Positions 10,005 through 14,328 of a DNA stretch of 14,328 nucleotides are shown here, one piece after another. The notes under the pieces were generated by a model. It was not told the origin of the DNA, made no database searches, and worked only from the letters and a program-made list of their open reading frames with translations. Made by a program: the position numbers and the translations under genes. Each line of letters begins with the position of its first letter. Position 1 is the first letter of the stretch. The stretch is from assembly GCA_027031765.1 (NCBI GenBank), contig JALVPN010000144.1:75734-90061 (forward strand). The letters run 5' to 3'. Source of the stretch: Promethearchaeota archaeon. GTDB taxonomy: Archaea; Asgardarchaeota; Thorarchaeia; Thorarchaeales; Thorarchaeaceae.

Positions 10005-10763
10005 TCAGCCGAACATGTTGTCCAGCAACATCATAACAACAAACCCGAACATCAGACCTAGTGTGGCATGCCGTGCAAAGCCACCGGAATGGCTTTCCGG
10101 GACCATTTCATCAGATACTACGAAGACCATTGCGCCAGCAGCAAATGAAAGCGCCACAGGGAGAAGGAACTGGGCAATGGAAACGACCGACACGCCGACC
10201 AGACCCCCCAAGGGCTCCACAAGTCCCGTCAGGAGTGCATACCCTGCAGCACGACGCCGACCATACCCCTCCCTAACCAACGGCATTGCAACGGCCAGCC
10301 CCTCCGGGATGTTCTGCAGGCCTATCGCGAGGGCGATTGGGACCCCGACTTCTAGGCTCTCCGCGCCAAACGCAACACCGACTGCCAGTCCTTCTGGAAA
10401 GTTGTGTATTGTGATTGCAAGGATGAGTAGCCAGATCCGGCGCATGCGTGTAGACGGGGGGCCCTCGTGCCCAGAAACAAAATGCTCATGGGGTATGTAG
10501 ATGTCCACGAGGTGGACAAACAGACCACCGAACAGGAAGCCAGCTGCAACCAACCAGATGTCAGCAAGGCCGAGAGCAGGCACTAGGAGACTGAATGCAG
10601 ACGCGGCAAGCATGACCCCACCGGCAAACCCCAGCATTGTGTCAAGTGACCTCCGCCCGAACTGACCCCCAAGTAGGACAGGAACCGCACCAATGCCAGT
10701 GGCAGCCCCCGCAAGCAGACTCGCCAGAGTCCCAGCGATAATTGTGTCTGTCAGCGCATCCAC
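10005..10763 (-). CDS. ZIP family divalent metal transporter (ZupT/GufA type)
   Basis: AITIHNFPEGLAVG (TM4), AIGLQNIPEGLAVA (TM5), His-containing loop PHEHF, FAAGAMVFVVSDEMVPE, and about eight hydrophobic segments. Confidence 0.93.
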   Translation of the reverse strand: MDALTDTIIAGTLASLLAGAATGIGAVPVLLGGQFGRRSLDTMLGFAGGVMLAASAFSLLVPALGLADIWLVAAGFLFGGLFVHLVDIYIPHEHFVSGHEGPPSTRMRRIWLLILAITIHNFPEGLAVGVAFGAESLEVGVPIALAIGLQNIPEGLAVAMPLVREGYGRRRAAGYALLTGLVEPLGGLVGVSVVSIAQFLLPVALSFAAGAMVFVVSDEMVPESHSGGFARHATLGLMFGFVVMMLLDNMFG

Positions 10764-11151: not shown

Positions 11152-12474
11152 TTGACCGAGCACAGACAGTTGTACGACAAGGTCTTCAGCCTGATTGAGC
11201 AGCATGATAGTTGGATGAGCAAGACAATCAACCTGATTGCCTCGGAGAACGTCTCGTCCCCTGCTGTCAGGTCTGCGATAGTCTGCGACTTCAGGGACAG
11301 ATATGCAGAGGGATGGCCTGGCGAACGGGTGTATGCAGGGTGTAAGTATATCGACGAGGTGGAGCTCATTTGCATAGACCTTGCAAAGAAGCTGTTCAGA
11401 GCAGAGTTTGCCGATGTGCGGCCCGTGTCCGGTGTAGTGGCCAACCTGATGATGTACACAGCCATGATGGAACCGCTCGACCGAATGATGGCGCTGTCAA
11501 TCGCACATGGGGGGCACATATCACATGCAAGGAAGAGCCTCGGTGGGACTGCTGGCGCAGTCCGGGGGCATAAGGTGCGTAACTGGGTGTTTGACGAGAA
11601 GGAGTTCAATATCGATGTTGACGCCAGTATCAAGGAAATACGGAGGCTCCAAGAGAAGGGGCAGGAGATAAGGTTCCTGCTGTTCGGGGGGTCTGTCTTT
11701 CCATTCCCGCATCCTGTAAAGGAGTTCCGTGAAATCGCAGACGAGTTCGGGATGCATATCGGGTACGACTCTGCACATGTGTCAGGACTCATTGCAGCAG
11801 GCCGTTTCCAAGACCCGCTACGTGAAGGGGCCGACATAATGACTGCATCCACCCACAAGACCCTACCGGGACCACAGCACGGGATTGTGCTCTCAAAGGC
11901 CGAGTTTGCAGATGCAGTGAAGGTTGCAGCCTTCCCCGGACTGCTCAGCAACCACCACCTCCACAACGTTGCTGGTCTGGCTGTGGCCCTTGCGGAGATG
12001 ATTGAGTTCGGAAAGGAGTATGCAGACCAGGTAATCAGGAATGCAAAGGCCCTTGCACAGGCACTCCATGAACGCGGGTGGAACGTAGTCGCTGAACACA
12101 AGGGGTTCACGGAGTCACACGTAGTACTCGTGGATGTTTCCGAAACGCCAATGAAGGATGGACGGACTGTCGAGGAACATCTTGAACGAGCGAACATCAT
12201 CATTAACCGGAACCTGCTGCCATGGGACAAAAAGATGGGGAGGGACTACAGGCGGCCCGGTGGGATCAGGCTCGGCTCAAGTGAGATGACGCGCCTTGGT
12301 ATGAAGGAGTCCGAGATGGACGCAATCGTCGAGTTCATGCACAGGGTGGTCATGAAGGGCGAAGATGTCGACAGGGTCGCGGCGGATGTGGCCGAGTTCA
12401 GGAAGGACTTCCAGAAGGTACACTTTGCTTTCGACACTGAAACACCCGCCTATGCACACCTGCGTTTCAGATAG
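11152..12474 (+). CDS. glyA: Serine hydroxymethyltransferase, archaeal type
   Basis: NLIASEN, YAEGWPGERVYAGC, HGGHISH, YDSAHV and the PLP-binding STHKTLPGPQHG. TTG start. Confidence 0.96.
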   Translation: MTEHRQLYDKVFSLIEQHDSWMSKTINLIASENVSSPAVRSAIVCDFRDRYAEGWPGERVYAGCKYIDEVELICIDLAKKLFRAEFADVRPVSGVVANLMMYTAMMEPLDRMMALSIAHGGHISHARKSLGGTAGAVRGHKVRNWVFDEKEFNIDVDASIKEIRRLQEKGQEIRFLLFGGSVFPFPHPVKEFREIADEFGMHIGYDSAHVSGLIAAGRFQDPLREGADIMTASTHKTLPGPQHGIVLSKAEFADAVKVAAFPGLLSNHHLHNVAGLAVALAEMIEFGKEYADQVIRNAKALAQALHERGWNVVAEHKGFTESHVVLVDVSETPMKDGRTVEEHLERANIIINRNLLPWDKKMGRDYRRPGGIRLGSSEMTRLGMKESEMDAIVEFMHRVVMKGEDVDRVAADVAEFRKDFQKVHFAFDTETPAYAHLRFR

Positions 12475-12508
12475 TGGCAGGGCCCCAAGGGTCTGCGAGG
12501 GGTTGCAG

Positions 12509-12805
12509 ATGGAGCTGCACGAGGCACAGGATCTTATGCGCAGGATATACCTAGAGCGAGACCGCAGACGAGGAGTTGAACGGACAATCCTACGCACATT
12601 CCAAGAGCTGGCAGAGCTCAGCGATGCGTTCCTCAAGGGGGATGACCACAGCAGCATCAATAGTGAGCTCGCAGATGTCCTCGCCTGGGTCTGTTCCCTC
12701 GCAAACCTCTTGGATGTCGACCTTACGCAGGCACTGACGAAAAAGTACGGCAGTGGGTGCTCTCGGTGCGGGCATACGCCGTGTGAATGTAAGGACACAC
12801 CGTAA
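12509..12805 (+). CDS. MazG-like nucleotide pyrophosphohydrolase with Cys-rich C-terminus (98 aa)
   Basis: ExxE (QELAEL) and ExxD (SELADVLAW) motifs, KY motif, and tail CSRCGHTPCEC. ATG 12509 is preferred; the track start at 12365 lies inside glyA. Confidence 0.85.
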   Translation: MELHEAQDLMRRIYLERDRRRGVERTILRTFQELAELSDAFLKGDDHSSINSELADVLAWVCSLANLLDVDLTQALTKKYGSGCSRCGHTPCECKDTP

Positions 12806-12912: not shown

Positions 12913-12985
12913 TCCCAACCACTCCACGATGACCCAAGGACGCCGCCGTAGCTCAGTTCGGTAGAGCGACAGCCTGTTAAGTTGT

Positions 12986-13016
12986 AACGCGCTACGGTCA
13001 CGTAGTGCGTGACGAA
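12986..13016 (+). other. tRNA-Asn intron 1 (31 nt, about position 43/44, relaxed BHB)
   Basis: 10-bp hairpin ACGCGCTACG/CGTAGTGCGT with GTCA loop, central helix AGTT/GACG, bulges GT|A and AA|T. An alternative register would shift the cut sites. Confidence 0.8.
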
Positions 13017-13032
13017 TGGCCGGAGGTTCAAG

Positions 13033-13156: not shown

Positions 13157-13263
13157 GGGCCAGTGGCTAAGCCAGGTATAGCGACAGGCTCTTAACTTGT
13201 AGAGCGCGAGGCTGCCTCGCACTTGAGGACTGGTCGGGGGTTCAAATCCCCCCTGGCCCGCCA
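13157..13263 (+). tRNA. tRNA-Lys(CUU) with one non-canonical intron (about 43/44), CCA encoded
   Basis: Removing 13201-13230 gives a 77-nt cloverleaf: GGGCCAG TG GCTA AGCCAGGTA TAGC G ACAGG CT-CTT-AA CTTGT TGGTC GGGGG TTCAAAT CCCCC CTGGCCC G CCA. Confidence 0.93.
13201..13230 (+). other. tRNA-Lys intron (30 nt, about position 43/44, relaxed BHB)
   Basis: Hairpin GAGCGCGAGG/CCTCGCACTT with one mismatch, central helix ACTT/GAGG, bulges GT|A and AC|T. Same geometry as tRNA-Asn intron 1. Confidence 0.8.
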
Positions 13264-13461
13264 CTCCACTGTACTATTATCGTCTAGGACGTTGAGGGGG
13301 ACGGTCGCCCAAGTCATGTATCAAATGGGTGGCGTGCAGACGGTTGTGCATGACCGCAGGGTGGCCGCGACTGTGAACCTGGTCGACCATGACGCAGCCG
13401 CCAAGTATGTATATATTAGTGCACTACAGAGCGGGACTACTACACTGGACTGTGCGTAGCC

Positions 13462-14328
13462 ATGTCCCTACGTGAGAACAGGTTCATCGTGGCAGTGCTG
13501 GTCGCAGCAGTTGTATTCAGCGGACTTACCATGGGCAACTTTCACCCCGCACCGGTGCCTGCTGGGGTATGCATTGTAAGGGGCACTGTCTTTGACTTTG
13601 GAGAATACCCCATCATTGACCACGAGCAGATTGCAGTGTTCAACTATCTCAGGGGGTTTGTGGCCGGGAAGCCATATGGGGACTGGGACGACTGGCATGT
13701 TGGGCAGTACCATGGACTTTTGCACTATGTGGTAGCCTTCATGACGTATGCAACATCAATGATGTTTGCCTCAACACCCGGATACCGGACGGAATACTAC
13801 ATGGGGTTTGCCCACAATCTCATCAAGAAAATGAACACATCTTATGAGGAATGGGGGGAGGACTCGATAGAGTACATGGAGTGGCTACACCCGTCCTACA
13901 ACTACGTGGACTACTACTGGCCGAACGCCTCCGACCCGAGTGGGCTGTACATGGGAGGGTTTCGGGGCCCTGCAAACATAATGTGGACAGGACACTACAC
14001 ACTGATGATGATGCTATACGAGCGGAACTTCAACACAGGCGAGTTCACAGGTGAGATAACAAGGTTCATCAATGGCTGGAACGAGTCGCTCACTACCGAT
14101 GGGCTTGGCAACCCGAGGGAGGGCGGGATCTGGGGCGTCGGCCTCATACCTTGCGAGCCGTACATTGTGTTTGTCCAGTGCAACAGTATCCCAATCATGT
14201 GCACAGAACTCTATGACAACATGTACGGTGCTCGGTACGTGGAGGGTGGGATGTGGGACTATGGACTGCAGTTCATCAATACCGTGATGCAAGACCACTA
14301 CGGACTGTTCATAGATGGGTACTATGTG
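13462..14328 (+). CDS. Linalool dehydratase/isomerase (LinD)-like protein with N-terminal signal peptide or anchor; truncated at window end (289 codons visible)
   Basis: My translation from ATG 13462 has no stop to the window end: MSLRENRFIVAVLVAAVVFSGLTMG...HYVVAFMTYA...ANIMWTGHYTLMMMLYER...GLIPCEPYIVFVQCNSIPIMCTELYDNMYG.... This matches LinD motifs as I recall them (NIMYKGHLNLMYGLY and GIVCEPDNYFVQCNS). Missing from the supplied ORF track, apparently because it has no stop within the window. Confidence 0.8.
   Translation, partial: MSLRENRFIVAVLVAAVVFSGLTMGNFHPAPVPAGVCIVRGTVFDFGEYPIIDHEQIAVFNYLRGFVAGKPYGDWDDWHVGQYHGLLHYVVAFMTYATSMMFASTPGYRTEYYMGFAHNLIKKMNTSYEEWGEDSIEYMEWLHPSYNYVDYYWPNASDPSGLYMGGFRGPANIMWTGHYTLMMMLYERNFNTGEFTGEITRFINGWNESLTTDGLGNPREGGIWGVGLIPCEPYIVFVQCNSIPIMCTELYDNMYGARYVEGGMWDYGLQFINTVMQDHYGLFIDGYYV

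What the first reader, a model, noticed from the sequence alone, without database searches (positions are those of the whole stretch)
13462..14328. Linalool dehydratase/isomerase-like enzyme in an archaeon, absent from the ORF track
Seen: an open frame of at least 289 codons with an N-terminal hydrophobic segment, own TATA-like element (about 13406-13419), NIMWTGH (M174, H178) and PCEPYIVFVQCNS (C231, E232, Q239, C240). Established, from my recollection of LinD of Castellaniella defragrans: the active site uses M125, H129, C171, E172, Q179 and C180 with the same spacing, and the enzyme is exported. Inference: a cofactor-free terpene hydratase/isomerase outside the membrane, acting either in anaerobic terpenoid degradation or in remodelling archaeal isoprenoid lipids. 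I know of no characterised archaeal member.
Basis: partly seen in the sequence, partly recalled or inferred. Interest (0 to 1): 0.7.

Follow-up and report, generated by a model that had tools for sequence, protein, structure and literature searches.

The report
Asgard LinD-like surface enzyme, cut gene
The window ends inside a real gene of a Thorarchaeota (Asgard) archaeon for a membrane-anchored, outward-facing relative of the bacterial terpene enzyme linalool dehydratase/isomerase; it keeps the catalytic cysteines and is always followed by a vitamin-transporter-like membrane protein, but its substrate is untested.

Summary
Bases 13462-14328 (+) are the first 289 codons of a gene cut by the contig end. 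The gene has an N-terminal membrane helix, NIMWTGH and PCEPYIVFVQCNS. These motifs align residue for residue with LinD M125, H129, C171, E172, Q179 and C180.

Family membership holds. Pfam Ldi scores 53.7 bits against a cut-off of 26.1. The family profile hits only LinD in the PDB (E 1e-21). A confident model of the full-length paralogue superposes on LinD at Z 39 (rmsd 2.1 A); the best glycosidase scores Z 22.7.

The rest of the gene almost certainly lies at the start of contig C40. Synteny in relatives joins the two contigs, with about 26 codons missing, for about 540 aa in total.

It is not a LinD orthologue. It belongs to a separate Asgard clade with about 21% identity to LinD, an extra C-terminal beta-sandwich and no LinD disulfide. 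In 53 of 56 matches an ECF S-component-like gene follows directly; the three exceptions are fragments at contig ends.

Function is inferred: a cofactor-free Cys/His acid-base (de)hydratase or allylic isomerase working outside the cell and handing a small molecule to its membrane partner. Public annotation already names relatives "linalool dehydratase/isomerase domain-containing". No paper was found. This scan reported the same module earlier on other DNA.

The parts
13406..13419 (+). BRE/TATA-like promoter element (aag-TATGTATATATTAG), about 45-55 nt upstream of the ATG
   Evidence: Sequence read. AAGTAT followed by an A/T-rich run recurs upstream of the orthologous gene in 7 other Thorarchaeota loci (L009, L011, L012, L013, L014, L015, L016). 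Promoter function is inferred; no transcript data.
13462..14328 (+). First 289 codons of the Ldi-family (LinD-like) gene, cut by the end of contig C144. The full protein is about 540 aa.
   Evidence: ORF. Pfam PF18566 scores 53.7 bits against a cut-off of 26.1. Homologues are 50-74% identical in Thorarchaeota MAGs. The AF2 model of this fragment hits only LinD in the PDB by Foldseek, E 2e-4. The remainder is at G000:C40:3-686.
13483..13536 (+). N-terminal hydrophobic helix (residues 8-25, FIVAVLVAAVVFSGLTMG). It is a signal anchor or uncleaved signal peptide that places the catalytic domain outside the cell.
   Evidence: Helix 7-25 in the fragment model and helix 9-27 in the paralogue model. 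The K/R-hydrophobic-(T)F(S/G)NLP pattern is conserved in full-length homologues. Topology is inferred from the positive-inside rule.
13975..13995 (+). NIMWTGH motif (M174, H178), equivalent to LinD NIMYKGH (M125, H129)
   Evidence: Alignment to PDB LinD chains. M is present in 56/56 and H in 56/56 Asgard sequences. N, M, G and H are invariant across a 44-sequence sample of the superfamily.
14149..14187 (+). PCEPYIVFVQCNS motif (C231, E232, Q239, C240), equivalent to LinD CEPDNYFVQCNS (C171, E172, Q179, C180)
   Evidence: Alignments. In Asgard sequences C231 is 58/58, C240 is 58/58, E232 is 55 E and 3 Q, and Q239 is 48 Q and 8 N. CEPx6CN is found through the whole superfamily.

Best explanation
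The frame is the 5' part of one intact gene of a Thorarchaeota MAG. The gene encodes a protein of about 540 aa with this layout:
- a short cytoplasmic N-terminus;
- one membrane helix;
- an extracellular LinD-type (alpha/alpha)6 barrel;
- a C-terminal beta-sandwich.

The missing 3' part, about 26 codons away, starts contig C40. There it is followed 14 nt later by a 203-aa, six-helix membrane protein of the ECF S-component type.

Shown here: the family, the fold, the conserved catalytic residues, the contig join by synteny, and the strict gene pairing.

Inferred mechanism: like LinD, the enzyme needs no cofactor. It uses the reduced cysteine pair (C231, C240), with H178, E232 and the conserved Tyr/Trp residues, as acid/base catalysts. 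These would add or remove water at a C=C bond, or shift an allylic hydroxyl, in a hydrophobic alkenol, most plausibly an isoprenoid alcohol. The reaction would take place on the outer face of the membrane. Substrate or product would pass to or from the S-component partner for uptake. The genome has EcfT-type modules elsewhere.

My confidence that it is an Ldi-superfamily ectoenzyme paired with an S-component-like protein is about 0.95. My confidence that the chemistry is LinD-like (de)hydration or isomerisation of an alkenol coupled to uptake is about 0.4. The single confidence figure given (0.55) is a compromise between the two.
For: Family:
- Pfam Ldi above cut-off.
- The Asgard profile hits only LinD among 177,635 PDB sequences, E 1e-21, over LinD residues 30-321.
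- hhalign against a LinD-type profile gives probability 99.95%, E 1.5e-38, 350 columns.

Fold:
- The model of the full-length paralogue from the same genome has pLDDT 87.6 and pTM 0.87.
- Foldseek gives LinD E 1e-13, TM 0.80.
- VIA-align gives LinD Z 39.0, rmsd 2.1 A, 337 of 364 residues. The next hit is GH105 YteR at Z 22.7.
- The model of the window fragment hits LinD only.

Catalytic residues: M, H, both Cys, and the equivalents of LinD Y66, Y240 and W244 are invariant or nearly so in about 58 Asgard sequences. PDB entries for C171A/S, C180A and M125A mutants show which residues LinD researchers targeted. A review states that two cysteines act in the proposed acid/base mechanism (PMC6013536).

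Contig join:
- tblastn finds only one N-terminal fragment (C144 end), one C-terminal fragment (C40 start) and one complete paralogue (C173).
- The two fragments abut in the alignment with a gap of about 26 residues.
- Relatives have the gene order SHMT...LDI-ECFS...c2-c3-c6-c7-c4-c5-c8-c14. The window ends with SHMT...LDI, and C40 starts with ECFS-c2-c3-c6-c7-c4-c5-c8-c14.

Partner:
- It lies immediately downstream on the same strand in 53 of 56 matches from 50 of 301 Asgard genomes. The three exceptions are fragments at contig ends.
- Tandem duplicates each carry their own partner.
- The partner matches PF07155 (ECF riboflavin-type S component) in 10 of 12 members. NCBI and JGI name it an ECF S component.
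- Two EcfT/CbiQ homologues are present in the genome.
Against: - No activity, substrate, transcript or protein data exist.
- Identity to LinD is only about 21%. The protein sits in a different clade from LinD.
- LinD's active site lies at a pentamer interface and uses residues of the neighbouring subunit. The equivalent of LinD D39 is not conserved here (R64/G65 in the window protein; D/R/N or T/D/E in relatives). The alignment around Y45 is uncertain. The oligomeric state could not be tested.
- LinD's channel-capping disulfide is absent.
- Known ECF S components bind water-soluble vitamins, not terpenoids. The genome's own partner copy scores below curated cut-offs.
- No terpene-catabolic genes are conserved next to the pair.
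- The contig join rests on synteny, not on a spanning read. The Logan contigs do not bridge it.
Confidence: 0.55

Rival explanations
1. It is a functional equivalent of Castellaniella LinD: the first enzyme of anaerobic monoterpene (myrcene/linalool/geraniol) catabolism, feeding carbon into central metabolism.
For: It belongs to the same superfamily, has the same fold and keeps the same catalytic residues. It is located outside the cytoplasm, as LinD is (PMC6013536).
Against: It sits in a separate clade with about 21% identity to LinD. No alcohol or aldehyde dehydrogenase, CoA ligase or acyclic-terpene-utilisation genes are conserved beside the Asgard pair. Bacterial long-form relatives, by contrast, do sometimes have Zn-ADH and AMP-ligase neighbours. 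The only invariant neighbour here is a high-affinity-type S component, which suits scavenging a trace compound rather than bulk carbon.
Confidence: 0.1
2. It is a non-catalytic, membrane-tethered capture or lid protein. It binds a ligand and delivers it to the S component, acting as a surrogate for the solute-binding protein that ECF transporters lack.
For: The pairing with the S-component gene is strict 1:1 and directly adjacent, and tandem duplicates keep the pair together. The protein is tethered at the outer face of the membrane.
Against: The two Cys, the His, the Met and the Glu are invariant across about 58 Asgard sequences and across the bacterial superfamily. That pattern is what a catalytic centre would show. 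A binding site should vary with its ligand.
Confidence: 0.1
3. It acts on a non-terpenoid substrate, such as a carbohydrate-derived enol or vinyl ether or another unsaturated polar compound. The mechanism would be a hydratase-type one, like the GH88/GH105 unsaturated glycuronyl hydrolases that are the next-best fold matches.
For: GH105, GH88, GH76 and epimerase barrels are the next structural matches, at Z 20-23. GH88/GH105 enzymes are known to work by hydrating a C=C bond (my own knowledge). S components normally carry polar vitamins. Sequons such as MNT[ST] and WN[NE]S are conserved, as in surface glycoproteins.
Against: LinD matches far better than any glycosidase (Z 39 against 22.7; E 1e-13 against 3.5e-5). 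No glycosidase family appears in the sequence searches. The conserved residues are those of LinD, not the catalytic Asp residues of GH88/GH105; that point was not aligned explicitly here.
Confidence: 0.12
4. It remodels the organism's own membrane isoprenoids from the outer face, for example by hydrating or isomerising double bonds of lipid or polyprenol chains. The partner would present the lipid.
For: The ectoenzyme is membrane-tethered next to an integral membrane protein. A MacB/FtsX-type ABC system, a class that handles lipophilic cargo, lies beside the pair in 6 of 20 loci from two Asgard families.
Against: The pair was found in only 42 of 76 genomes of the window's own family and was not found in most Asgard families searched. 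A core lipid function should be universal. The ABC system is not adjacent in this genome. No lipid-biosynthesis genes are conserved nearby.
Confidence: 0.08

Closest known systems
Linalool dehydratase/isomerase LinD (Ldi) of Castellaniella defragrans 65Phen (EC 4.2.1.127 / 5.4.4.4; Pfam PF18566; PDB 5G1U, 5HLR, 5I3T)
   Same: The fold is the same (alpha/alpha)6 barrel: Z 39, rmsd 2.1 A over 337 residues for the paralogue model. The NIM(Y/W)xGH and CEPx5QCN motifs are shared, with M125, H129, C171, E172, Q179 and C180 all matched. The equivalents of Y66, Y240 and W244 are conserved. Both are located outside the cytoplasm. No cofactor-binding motif is present.
   Different: Identity is about 21% and the proteins fall in separate clades. 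This protein is about 540 aa against 397 aa. It has a probable uncleaved membrane anchor rather than a Sec signal peptide, and an extra C-terminal beta-sandwich of about 80 aa. The C49-C102 disulfide is absent and the D39 position is not conserved. The organism is an archaeon. The obligatory neighbour is an ECF S-component-like gene rather than terpene-oxidation genes. Activity is unknown.
Bacterial long-form Ldi-superfamily proteins (about 520-600 aa, NIMYSGH / CEPNxxFxxCN; uncharacterised; Hydrogenedentota, Acidobacteriota, Myxococcota, Desulfomonilia, Sphingomonas, Bacteroidales and others)
   Same: Length and barrel-plus-C-terminal-domain layout are similar (profile matches reach positions 484-494 of 495). 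The Met/His and Cys pair are invariant.
   Different: None of 80 bacterial loci has the S-component partner. Their recurrent neighbours are a DsbA-like thioredoxin, Zn-ADH, a TonB receptor and an AMP-ligase. The residue before the second Cys is P/E/I/V rather than Q.
ECF transporter S components of the RibU type (PF07155; NCBIfam PRK13661), for the partner gene
   Same: The partner is about 200 aa with six predicted membrane helices and a small-xxx-small motif in helix 1. PF07155 matches 10 of 12 partner sequences. NCBI and JGI name it an ECF S component. EcfT homologues are present in the genome.
   Different: The copy on C40 scores below curated cut-offs. There is no PDB sequence match. It forms an Asgard-only subfamily that is never found apart from the Ldi-like gene. 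I know of no S component that is paired with an ectoenzyme, and none surfaced in the literature searches. The invariant GAxRGPxAGxxxGYxG motif has no known meaning.

Membership tests
Ldi / linalool dehydratase-isomerase superfamily (Pfam PF18566) | Score above the Pfam gathering threshold | tested here: met
   The window fragment scores 53.7 bits against a cut-off of 26.1. The paralogue scores 35.9 bits.
Ldi / linalool dehydratase-isomerase superfamily (Pfam PF18566) | LinD-type (alpha/alpha)6 barrel fold | tested here: met
   The paralogue model (pLDDT 87.6) against LinD gives Z 39.0, rmsd 2.1 A, 337 aa, and Foldseek E 1e-13. The next family scores Z 22.7. The window fragment model (pLDDT 67.9) hits LinD only, E 2e-4.
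Ldi / linalool dehydratase-isomerase superfamily (Pfam PF18566) | Catalytic cysteine pair (LinD C171, C180) in CEPx6CN | tested here: met
   C231 and C240 align with C171 and C180. Both are present in 58/58 Asgard sequences.
Ldi / linalool dehydratase-isomerase superfamily (Pfam PF18566) | Met/His of NIMYxGH (LinD M125, H129) | tested here: met
   M174 and H178 are aligned. Each is present in 56/56 Asgard sequences.
LinD proper (C. defragrans-type enzyme, EC 4.2.1.127) | Orthology: same clade as LinD, about 400 aa, single domain | tested here: not met
   The Asgard sequences form their own clade (SH-aLRT 99), apart from the LinD-type short clade. The protein is about 540 aa with an added C-terminal beta-sandwich.
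LinD proper (C. defragrans-type enzyme, EC 4.2.1.127) | Channel-capping disulfide (LinD C49-C102) | tested here: not met
   The aligned positions are Gly and Thr or other residues, with no Cys. The role of this disulfide is stated in PMC6013536.
LinD proper (C. defragrans-type enzyme, EC 4.2.1.127) | Cyclic pentamer with the active site at a subunit interface, completed by neighbour residues (D39, Y45; these residue roles are from my memory) | tested here: inconclusive
The D39-equivalent column is variable (window R64/G65). The Y45 region aligns with gaps, and a conserved Tyr (Y72) lies one to three positions off.
LinD proper (C. defragrans-type enzyme, EC 4.2.1.127) | Reversible linalool dehydration to myrcene and isomerisation to geraniol | not testable with these tools
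   This needs an enzyme assay.
LinD proper (C. defragrans-type enzyme, EC 4.2.1.127) | Export across the cytoplasmic membrane | tested here: inconclusive
   An N-terminal hydrophobic helix preceded by K/R is conserved. No signal-peptide predictor was available. A cleavable signal and a signal anchor cannot be told apart.
ECF transporter S component (PF07155 / PF12822), for the downstream partner on C40 | Profile match and a six-helix, roughly 20-kDa architecture | tested here: inconclusive
   10 of 12 orthologues match PF07155 (best E 7.5e-8). The genome's own C40 copy has no Pfam hit at E <= 0.01 and scores 22 bits on NCBIfam PRK13661 against a cut-off of 99. Sources name close homologues 'ECF transporter S component'. 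No structure was predicted.

The most novel reading that the evidence does not exclude
The Ldi-like ectoenzyme and its S-component partner form an Asgard-specific salvage system for environmental isoprenoid alcohols. The enzyme would convert tertiary allylic alcohols or alkenes released from decaying lipids (linalool-, nerolidol- or geranyllinalool-type) into primary allylic alcohols outside the cell. The S component would take these up. Kinases would re-phosphorylate them for membrane-lipid synthesis. In 5 of 20 loci an archaeal-type isopentenyl phosphate kinase and an unnamed membrane protein directly follow the pair. If true, this would be a molecular route for the isoprenoid recycling long proposed for benthic archaea.
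Probability: 0.15. Interest if true: 0.8.

Novelty: new variant of a known kind. Interest (0 to 1): 0.5.

Why it matters
LinD is the only studied member of a small superfamily: 172 clusters at 50% identity among 1.84 billion representative proteins. It is valued as a cofactor-free catalyst for hydrating and dehydrating unactivated alkenes.

A conserved Asgard-archaeal branch with these features would be the first archaeal example:
- it is tethered to the outside of the cell;
- it keeps the whole catalytic set;
- it is locked to a transporter-type membrane protein.

It would also be the first link between this chemistry and an uptake component. If the substrate is an isoprenoid alcohol, the module would bear on how sediment and vent archaea obtain or recycle the building blocks of their membranes.

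For this window alone the result is modest. It is a truncated copy of a module that is recognisable by standard annotation and that this scan has already reported in other genomes.

Tried and rejected
Neighbourhoods were taken from the genome search and the fetch from genomes instead.
- The protein-atlas search could not read the partner sequence.
No model was made of the partner, the isolated C-terminal domain, the complex or an oligomer.

Searches with no result:
- NCBIfam has no model hit for the Ldi-like proteins.
- The partner profile has no PDB sequence match.
- The first related-loci query (alignment A4) was too diverse to give a search pattern. A narrower alignment worked.
- The S-component HMM found nothing in the 80 bacterial loci.
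- The membrane protein that follows the pair in 5 loci (c22) has no Pfam or NCBIfam hit, even at E 10. I therefore could not confirm that it is a prenol kinase. Its GDGLADxIGRKxG-like motif reminded me of CTP-dependent polyprenol kinases, but that is from memory only.
- ARAGORN missed two intron-bearing tRNAs that Rfam found.

Sequencing runs:
- One DNA holder was found, a hydrothermal vent metagenome, which may be the source sample. No RNA holder was listed.
- Logan contigs of that run stop at 14121 and at 14328 and give no loose end or bridge to C40.
- No shared k-mer of more than 17 nt exists with the paralogue, and there is no overlap between the C144 end and the C40 start. An in-genome repeat therefore does not explain the break.

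Literature:
- No paper links linalool dehydratase to archaea, Asgard or sediments in a relevant way.
- Nestl et al. 2017 and Brodkorb et al. 2010 are not held. The roles of H129, E172, Q179, D39 and Y45 therefore rest on my memory and on PDB entry titles.

Readings considered and rejected:
- Chance ORF or pseudogene. The frame is conserved, intact and under clear constraint.
- Glycoside hydrolase. The fold and profile gap to LinD is too large.
- Type IV pilin-like signal peptide. The residue before the hydrophobic stretch is K/R, not G/A.
Full report
**What is in the window.** With open-ended frames allowed, the ORF listing shows one frame at 13462..14328 (+). It has an ATG start and 289 codons, and it runs off the end of the window. 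The window is G000:C144:75734-90061 and C144 is 90,061 bases long, so the gene is cut by a contig end. That explains its absence from an ORF track that drops open-ended frames. Residues 8-25 are hydrophobic and follow an Arg-containing N-terminus. AlphaFold models them as a helix. The A/T-rich element at 13406-13419 is present.

**Family.** Pfam gives a single hit, Ldi (PF18566), at 53.7 bits against a cut-off of 26.1.
- phmmer against all PDB sequences finds only LinD chains. It aligns NIMWTGH with NIMYKGH and CEPYIVFVQCNS with CEPDNYFVQCNS.
- A profile of 15 relatives again hits only LinD, at E 1e-21, in three stretches covering LinD residues 30-321.
- A profile-profile comparison with LinD-type sequences gives probability 99.95%, E 1.5e-38, over 350 columns. 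That set includes P0096, which matches PDB LinD at E 3e-190.

**Fold.** The window fragment alone folds with moderate confidence (pLDDT 67.9). Its only significant Foldseek matches in the PDB are LinD entries, at about E 2e-4. The same genome has a complete paralogue on contig C173, 545 aa and 56% identical. Its model is confident (pLDDT 87.6, pTM 0.87). It shows a membrane helix (residues 9-27), an (alpha/alpha)6 barrel (about 51-465) and a C-terminal beta-sandwich (468-545).
- Foldseek puts LinD first, at E 1e-13 and TM 0.80. GH105, GH76, GH88 and GH127 barrels follow at E 3.5e-5 or worse.
- VIA-align gives LinD Z 39.0, rmsd 2.1 A, 337 of 364 residues. GH105 YteR is next at Z 22.7.
It is not met.

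**The rest of the gene.** tblastn of relatives against the whole assembly finds three pieces:
- the C144 end (N-terminal 289 aa);
- the start of C40 (C-terminal 227 aa, bases 3-686);
- the complete paralogue on C173.

In the family alignment the first two pieces abut without overlap, about 26 residues apart. Synteny settles the join. In 13-14 related genomes the gene order is SHMT ... Ldi-like, S-component, then a block c2-c3-c6-c7-c4-c5-c8-c14. That block includes TYW2/Trm5, DUF371, PCMT, a riboflavin kinase, a translin-like protein and TYW1. The window ends with SHMT ... Ldi-like, and C40 begins with S-component-c2-c3-c6-c7-c4-c5-c8-c14. No read or contig spanning the gap could be obtained, so the join is inferred, though strongly. 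The full protein would be about 540 aa.

**Conservation.** In about 58 Asgard sequences:

| Window residue | LinD equivalent | Conservation |
|---|---|---|
| M174 | M125 | 56/56 |
| H178 | H129 | 56/56 |
| C231 | C171 | 58/58 |
| C240 | C180 | 58/58 |
| N241 | N181 | 58/58 |
| E232 | E172 | 55 E, 3 Q |
| Q239 | Q179 | 48 Q, 8 N |
| Y89 | Y66 | 47/47 |
| in the C-terminal part | Y240 | 52/52 |
| in the C-terminal part | W244 | 51/52 |

Three LinD features differ. The LinD disulfide C49-C102 has no counterpart; a review describes it as capping the substrate channel (PMC6013536). The column of LinD D39 is variable (R64/G65 in the window protein). The alignment around LinD Y45 is uncertain. The three E-to-Q sequences, including the C173 paralogue, form a small paralogue lineage.

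**Distribution and relatives.** A scan of all 1.84 billion cluster representatives with the family profile finds only 172 clusters at E <= 1e-3, and 15 at E < 1e-30.
- The close set is from Asgard archaea. Sources name Thorarchaeota, Hodarchaeales, Helarchaeota and Kariarchaeaceae, and NCBI already labels several 'linalool dehydratase/isomerase domain-containing protein'.
- Among 301 Asgard genomes the gene was found in 50. By family code that is 42 of 76 in the window's family, 3 of 3 in f13 and 4 of 21 in f22. It was not found in the other families searched.
- The remaining relatives are bacterial. One group is a short LinD-type clade of about 400 aa. The others are long forms of about 520-600 aa, widespread in Hydrogenedentota, Acidobacteriota, Myxococcota, Desulfomonilia, Sphingomonas, Bacteroidales and others.
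- NIM[YW]xGH and CEPx6CN run through the whole superfamily.
- In a maximum-likelihood tree the Asgard proteins form one well-supported clade (SH-aLRT 99). It is separate from the LinD-type clade and from two bacterial long-form clades. The protein is therefore a member of the superfamily but not a LinD orthologue.

**The partner.** On C40 the C-terminal fragment is followed 14 nt later by a 203-aa membrane protein. On C173 the paralogue is followed by a homologue.
- The same gene follows the Ldi-like gene in every locus examined.
- Of 56 Ldi-like matches across the Asgard sample, 53 have it immediately downstream on the same strand. The three exceptions are N-terminal fragments at contig ends, including this window.
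- Tandem duplicates carry one partner each.
- The partner matches PF07155 (ECF riboflavin-type S component) in 10 of 12 members. NCBI and JGI name it an ECF S component, and all close homologues are from Asgard archaea.
- The genome's own C40 copy is below curated cut-offs.
- The genome has two EcfT/CbiQ homologues elsewhere.
- None of the 80 bacterial loci has such a partner.

**Other neighbours.** These are lineage-specific.
- In 6 of 20 loci, from two Asgard families, a MacB/FtsX-type ABC system lies beside the pair. In this genome it is on contig C165.
- In 5 of 20 loci the pair is followed by an unnamed membrane protein and an archaeal isopentenyl phosphate kinase (NCBIfam IPPK_Arch, 176 bits against a cut-off of 120). 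In this genome they are not adjacent.
- No alcohol or aldehyde dehydrogenase or CoA-ligase genes are conserved next to the Asgard pair.

**Promoter.** The motif AAGTAT followed by an A/T-rich run, the shape of an archaeal BRE plus TATA box, lies about 45-90 nt upstream of the start in the window and in seven other Thorarchaeota loci. Three of those seven are from one genus.

**How it most likely works.** Shown here: an outward-facing, membrane-tethered LinD-type barrel with a complete LinD-like catalytic set, genetically locked to an S-component-type membrane protein. Inferred: cofactor-free acid/base catalysis by the reduced Cys pair with His and Glu. This would add or remove water at a C=C bond, or shift an allylic hydroxyl, in a hydrophobic alkenol, with hand-over to or from the partner for uptake. 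I put about 0.95 on the identity and architecture and about 0.4 on this chemistry and coupling. The rivals are bulk monoterpene catabolism as in Castellaniella, a non-catalytic capture protein, a polar or carbohydrate-type substrate, and remodelling of the cell's own lipids. Each gets about 0.1, for the reasons given under the rival explanations.

**Novelty.** The family and the fold are known, and automatic annotation recognises the domain. Three things are not described in any paper I could find: the Asgard clade, its anchor-barrel-sandwich layout, and its strict pairing with an S-component-like protein. The same module was reported earlier by this scan on other genomes. I re-derived the pairing, the three-lineage distribution and the CQP variant independently here. 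I only partly checked the kinase and ABC associations. For this window the specific additions are the split across two contigs, the synteny-based join and the conserved promoter-like motif.

Noticed in passing
window 12942-13028 and 13157-13260 (+): Rfam finds two tRNA genes here (33.3 and 57.3 bits) that ARAGORN missed. At 87 and 104 nt they are longer than a standard tRNA, which fits intron-bearing archaeal tRNAs. They lie between the MazG-like gene and the Ldi-like gene.
   Followed up: partly
window 11152-12474 (+), 12365-12805 (+), 10005-10763 (-): Upstream genes are serine hydroxymethyltransferase, a MazG-type pyrophosphohydrolase and a ZIP metal transporter. The long MazG frame overlaps the SHMT 3' end by about 110 nt, so its true start is probably later. 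In relatives SHMT is on the opposite strand to the Ldi-like gene; here it is on the same strand, which suggests a local inversion.
   Followed up: partly
G000:C173 (L003 1459-3096, 3110-3514): A second, complete Ldi-like paralogue has CQP instead of CEP (Glu to Gln at the LinD E172 position). It has its own S-component partner and a WD40-repeat gene upstream. With P0020 and one copy in G296 it forms a distinct paralogue lineage (SH-aLRT 98).
   Followed up: partly
L110, L114, L117, L119 (family f1) and L126, L127 (family f22): A MacB/FtsX-type ABC system lies beside the Ldi-like/S-component pair. It comprises an ABC ATPase, an FtsX permease, three small unannotated proteins of 142-156 aa and a 341-aa protein. 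It is divergent from the pair in Thorarchaeota and co-directional in f22. In the window's genome the cluster is on C165:14.8-17.9 kb, away from the pair.
   Followed up: partly
L109, L111, L112, L113, L123: In 5 of 20 loci the pair is followed directly by a 268-aa membrane protein without any Pfam or NCBIfam hit, and then by an archaeal isopentenyl phosphate kinase (IPPK_Arch, 176 bits). This is a possible lead for isoprenoid-alcohol salvage. The two genes are absent from this position in the window's genome.
   Followed up: partly
G000:C40 4646-5326 (-) (L004): A CTP-dependent riboflavin kinase with an N-terminal HTH domain lies about 3.3 kb from the RibU-family-like S-component gene. It sits inside a syntenic block of tRNA-modification and housekeeping genes. 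The placement is probably coincidental, but the S component's best family match is the riboflavin type.
   Followed up: no
L025-L104 (80 bacterial loci): Bacterial long-form Ldi relatives often have a DsbA-like thioredoxin gene next to them (16 loci). Other recurrent neighbours are a Zn-dependent alcohol dehydrogenase (11 loci), an HGD-D dehydratase component, a TonB receptor and an AMP-dependent ligase. This hints at periplasmic redox care of the Cys pair and at catabolic contexts.
   Followed up: partly
window 14122-14328; also G155:C125 / C121 and G281:C140: This gene is often broken at contig ends in MAGs. Many NCBI homologues are marked 'partial'. G155 shows the same split, with an N-terminal fragment at a contig end and the partner at a contig start. 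In the one run that holds the window, Logan contig depth drops from 10.8 to 3.2 after 14121. No in-genome repeat explains this; strain-level variation is a guess.
   Followed up: partly
Partner alignment A3 (e.g. L004 701-1312): The S-component-like partner has an invariant motif GAxRGPxAGxxxGYxG, plus invariant Y123, S130 and K133 (C40 numbering). I know of no meaning for these. The conserved Arg and Lys might bind an anionic group.
   Followed up: no
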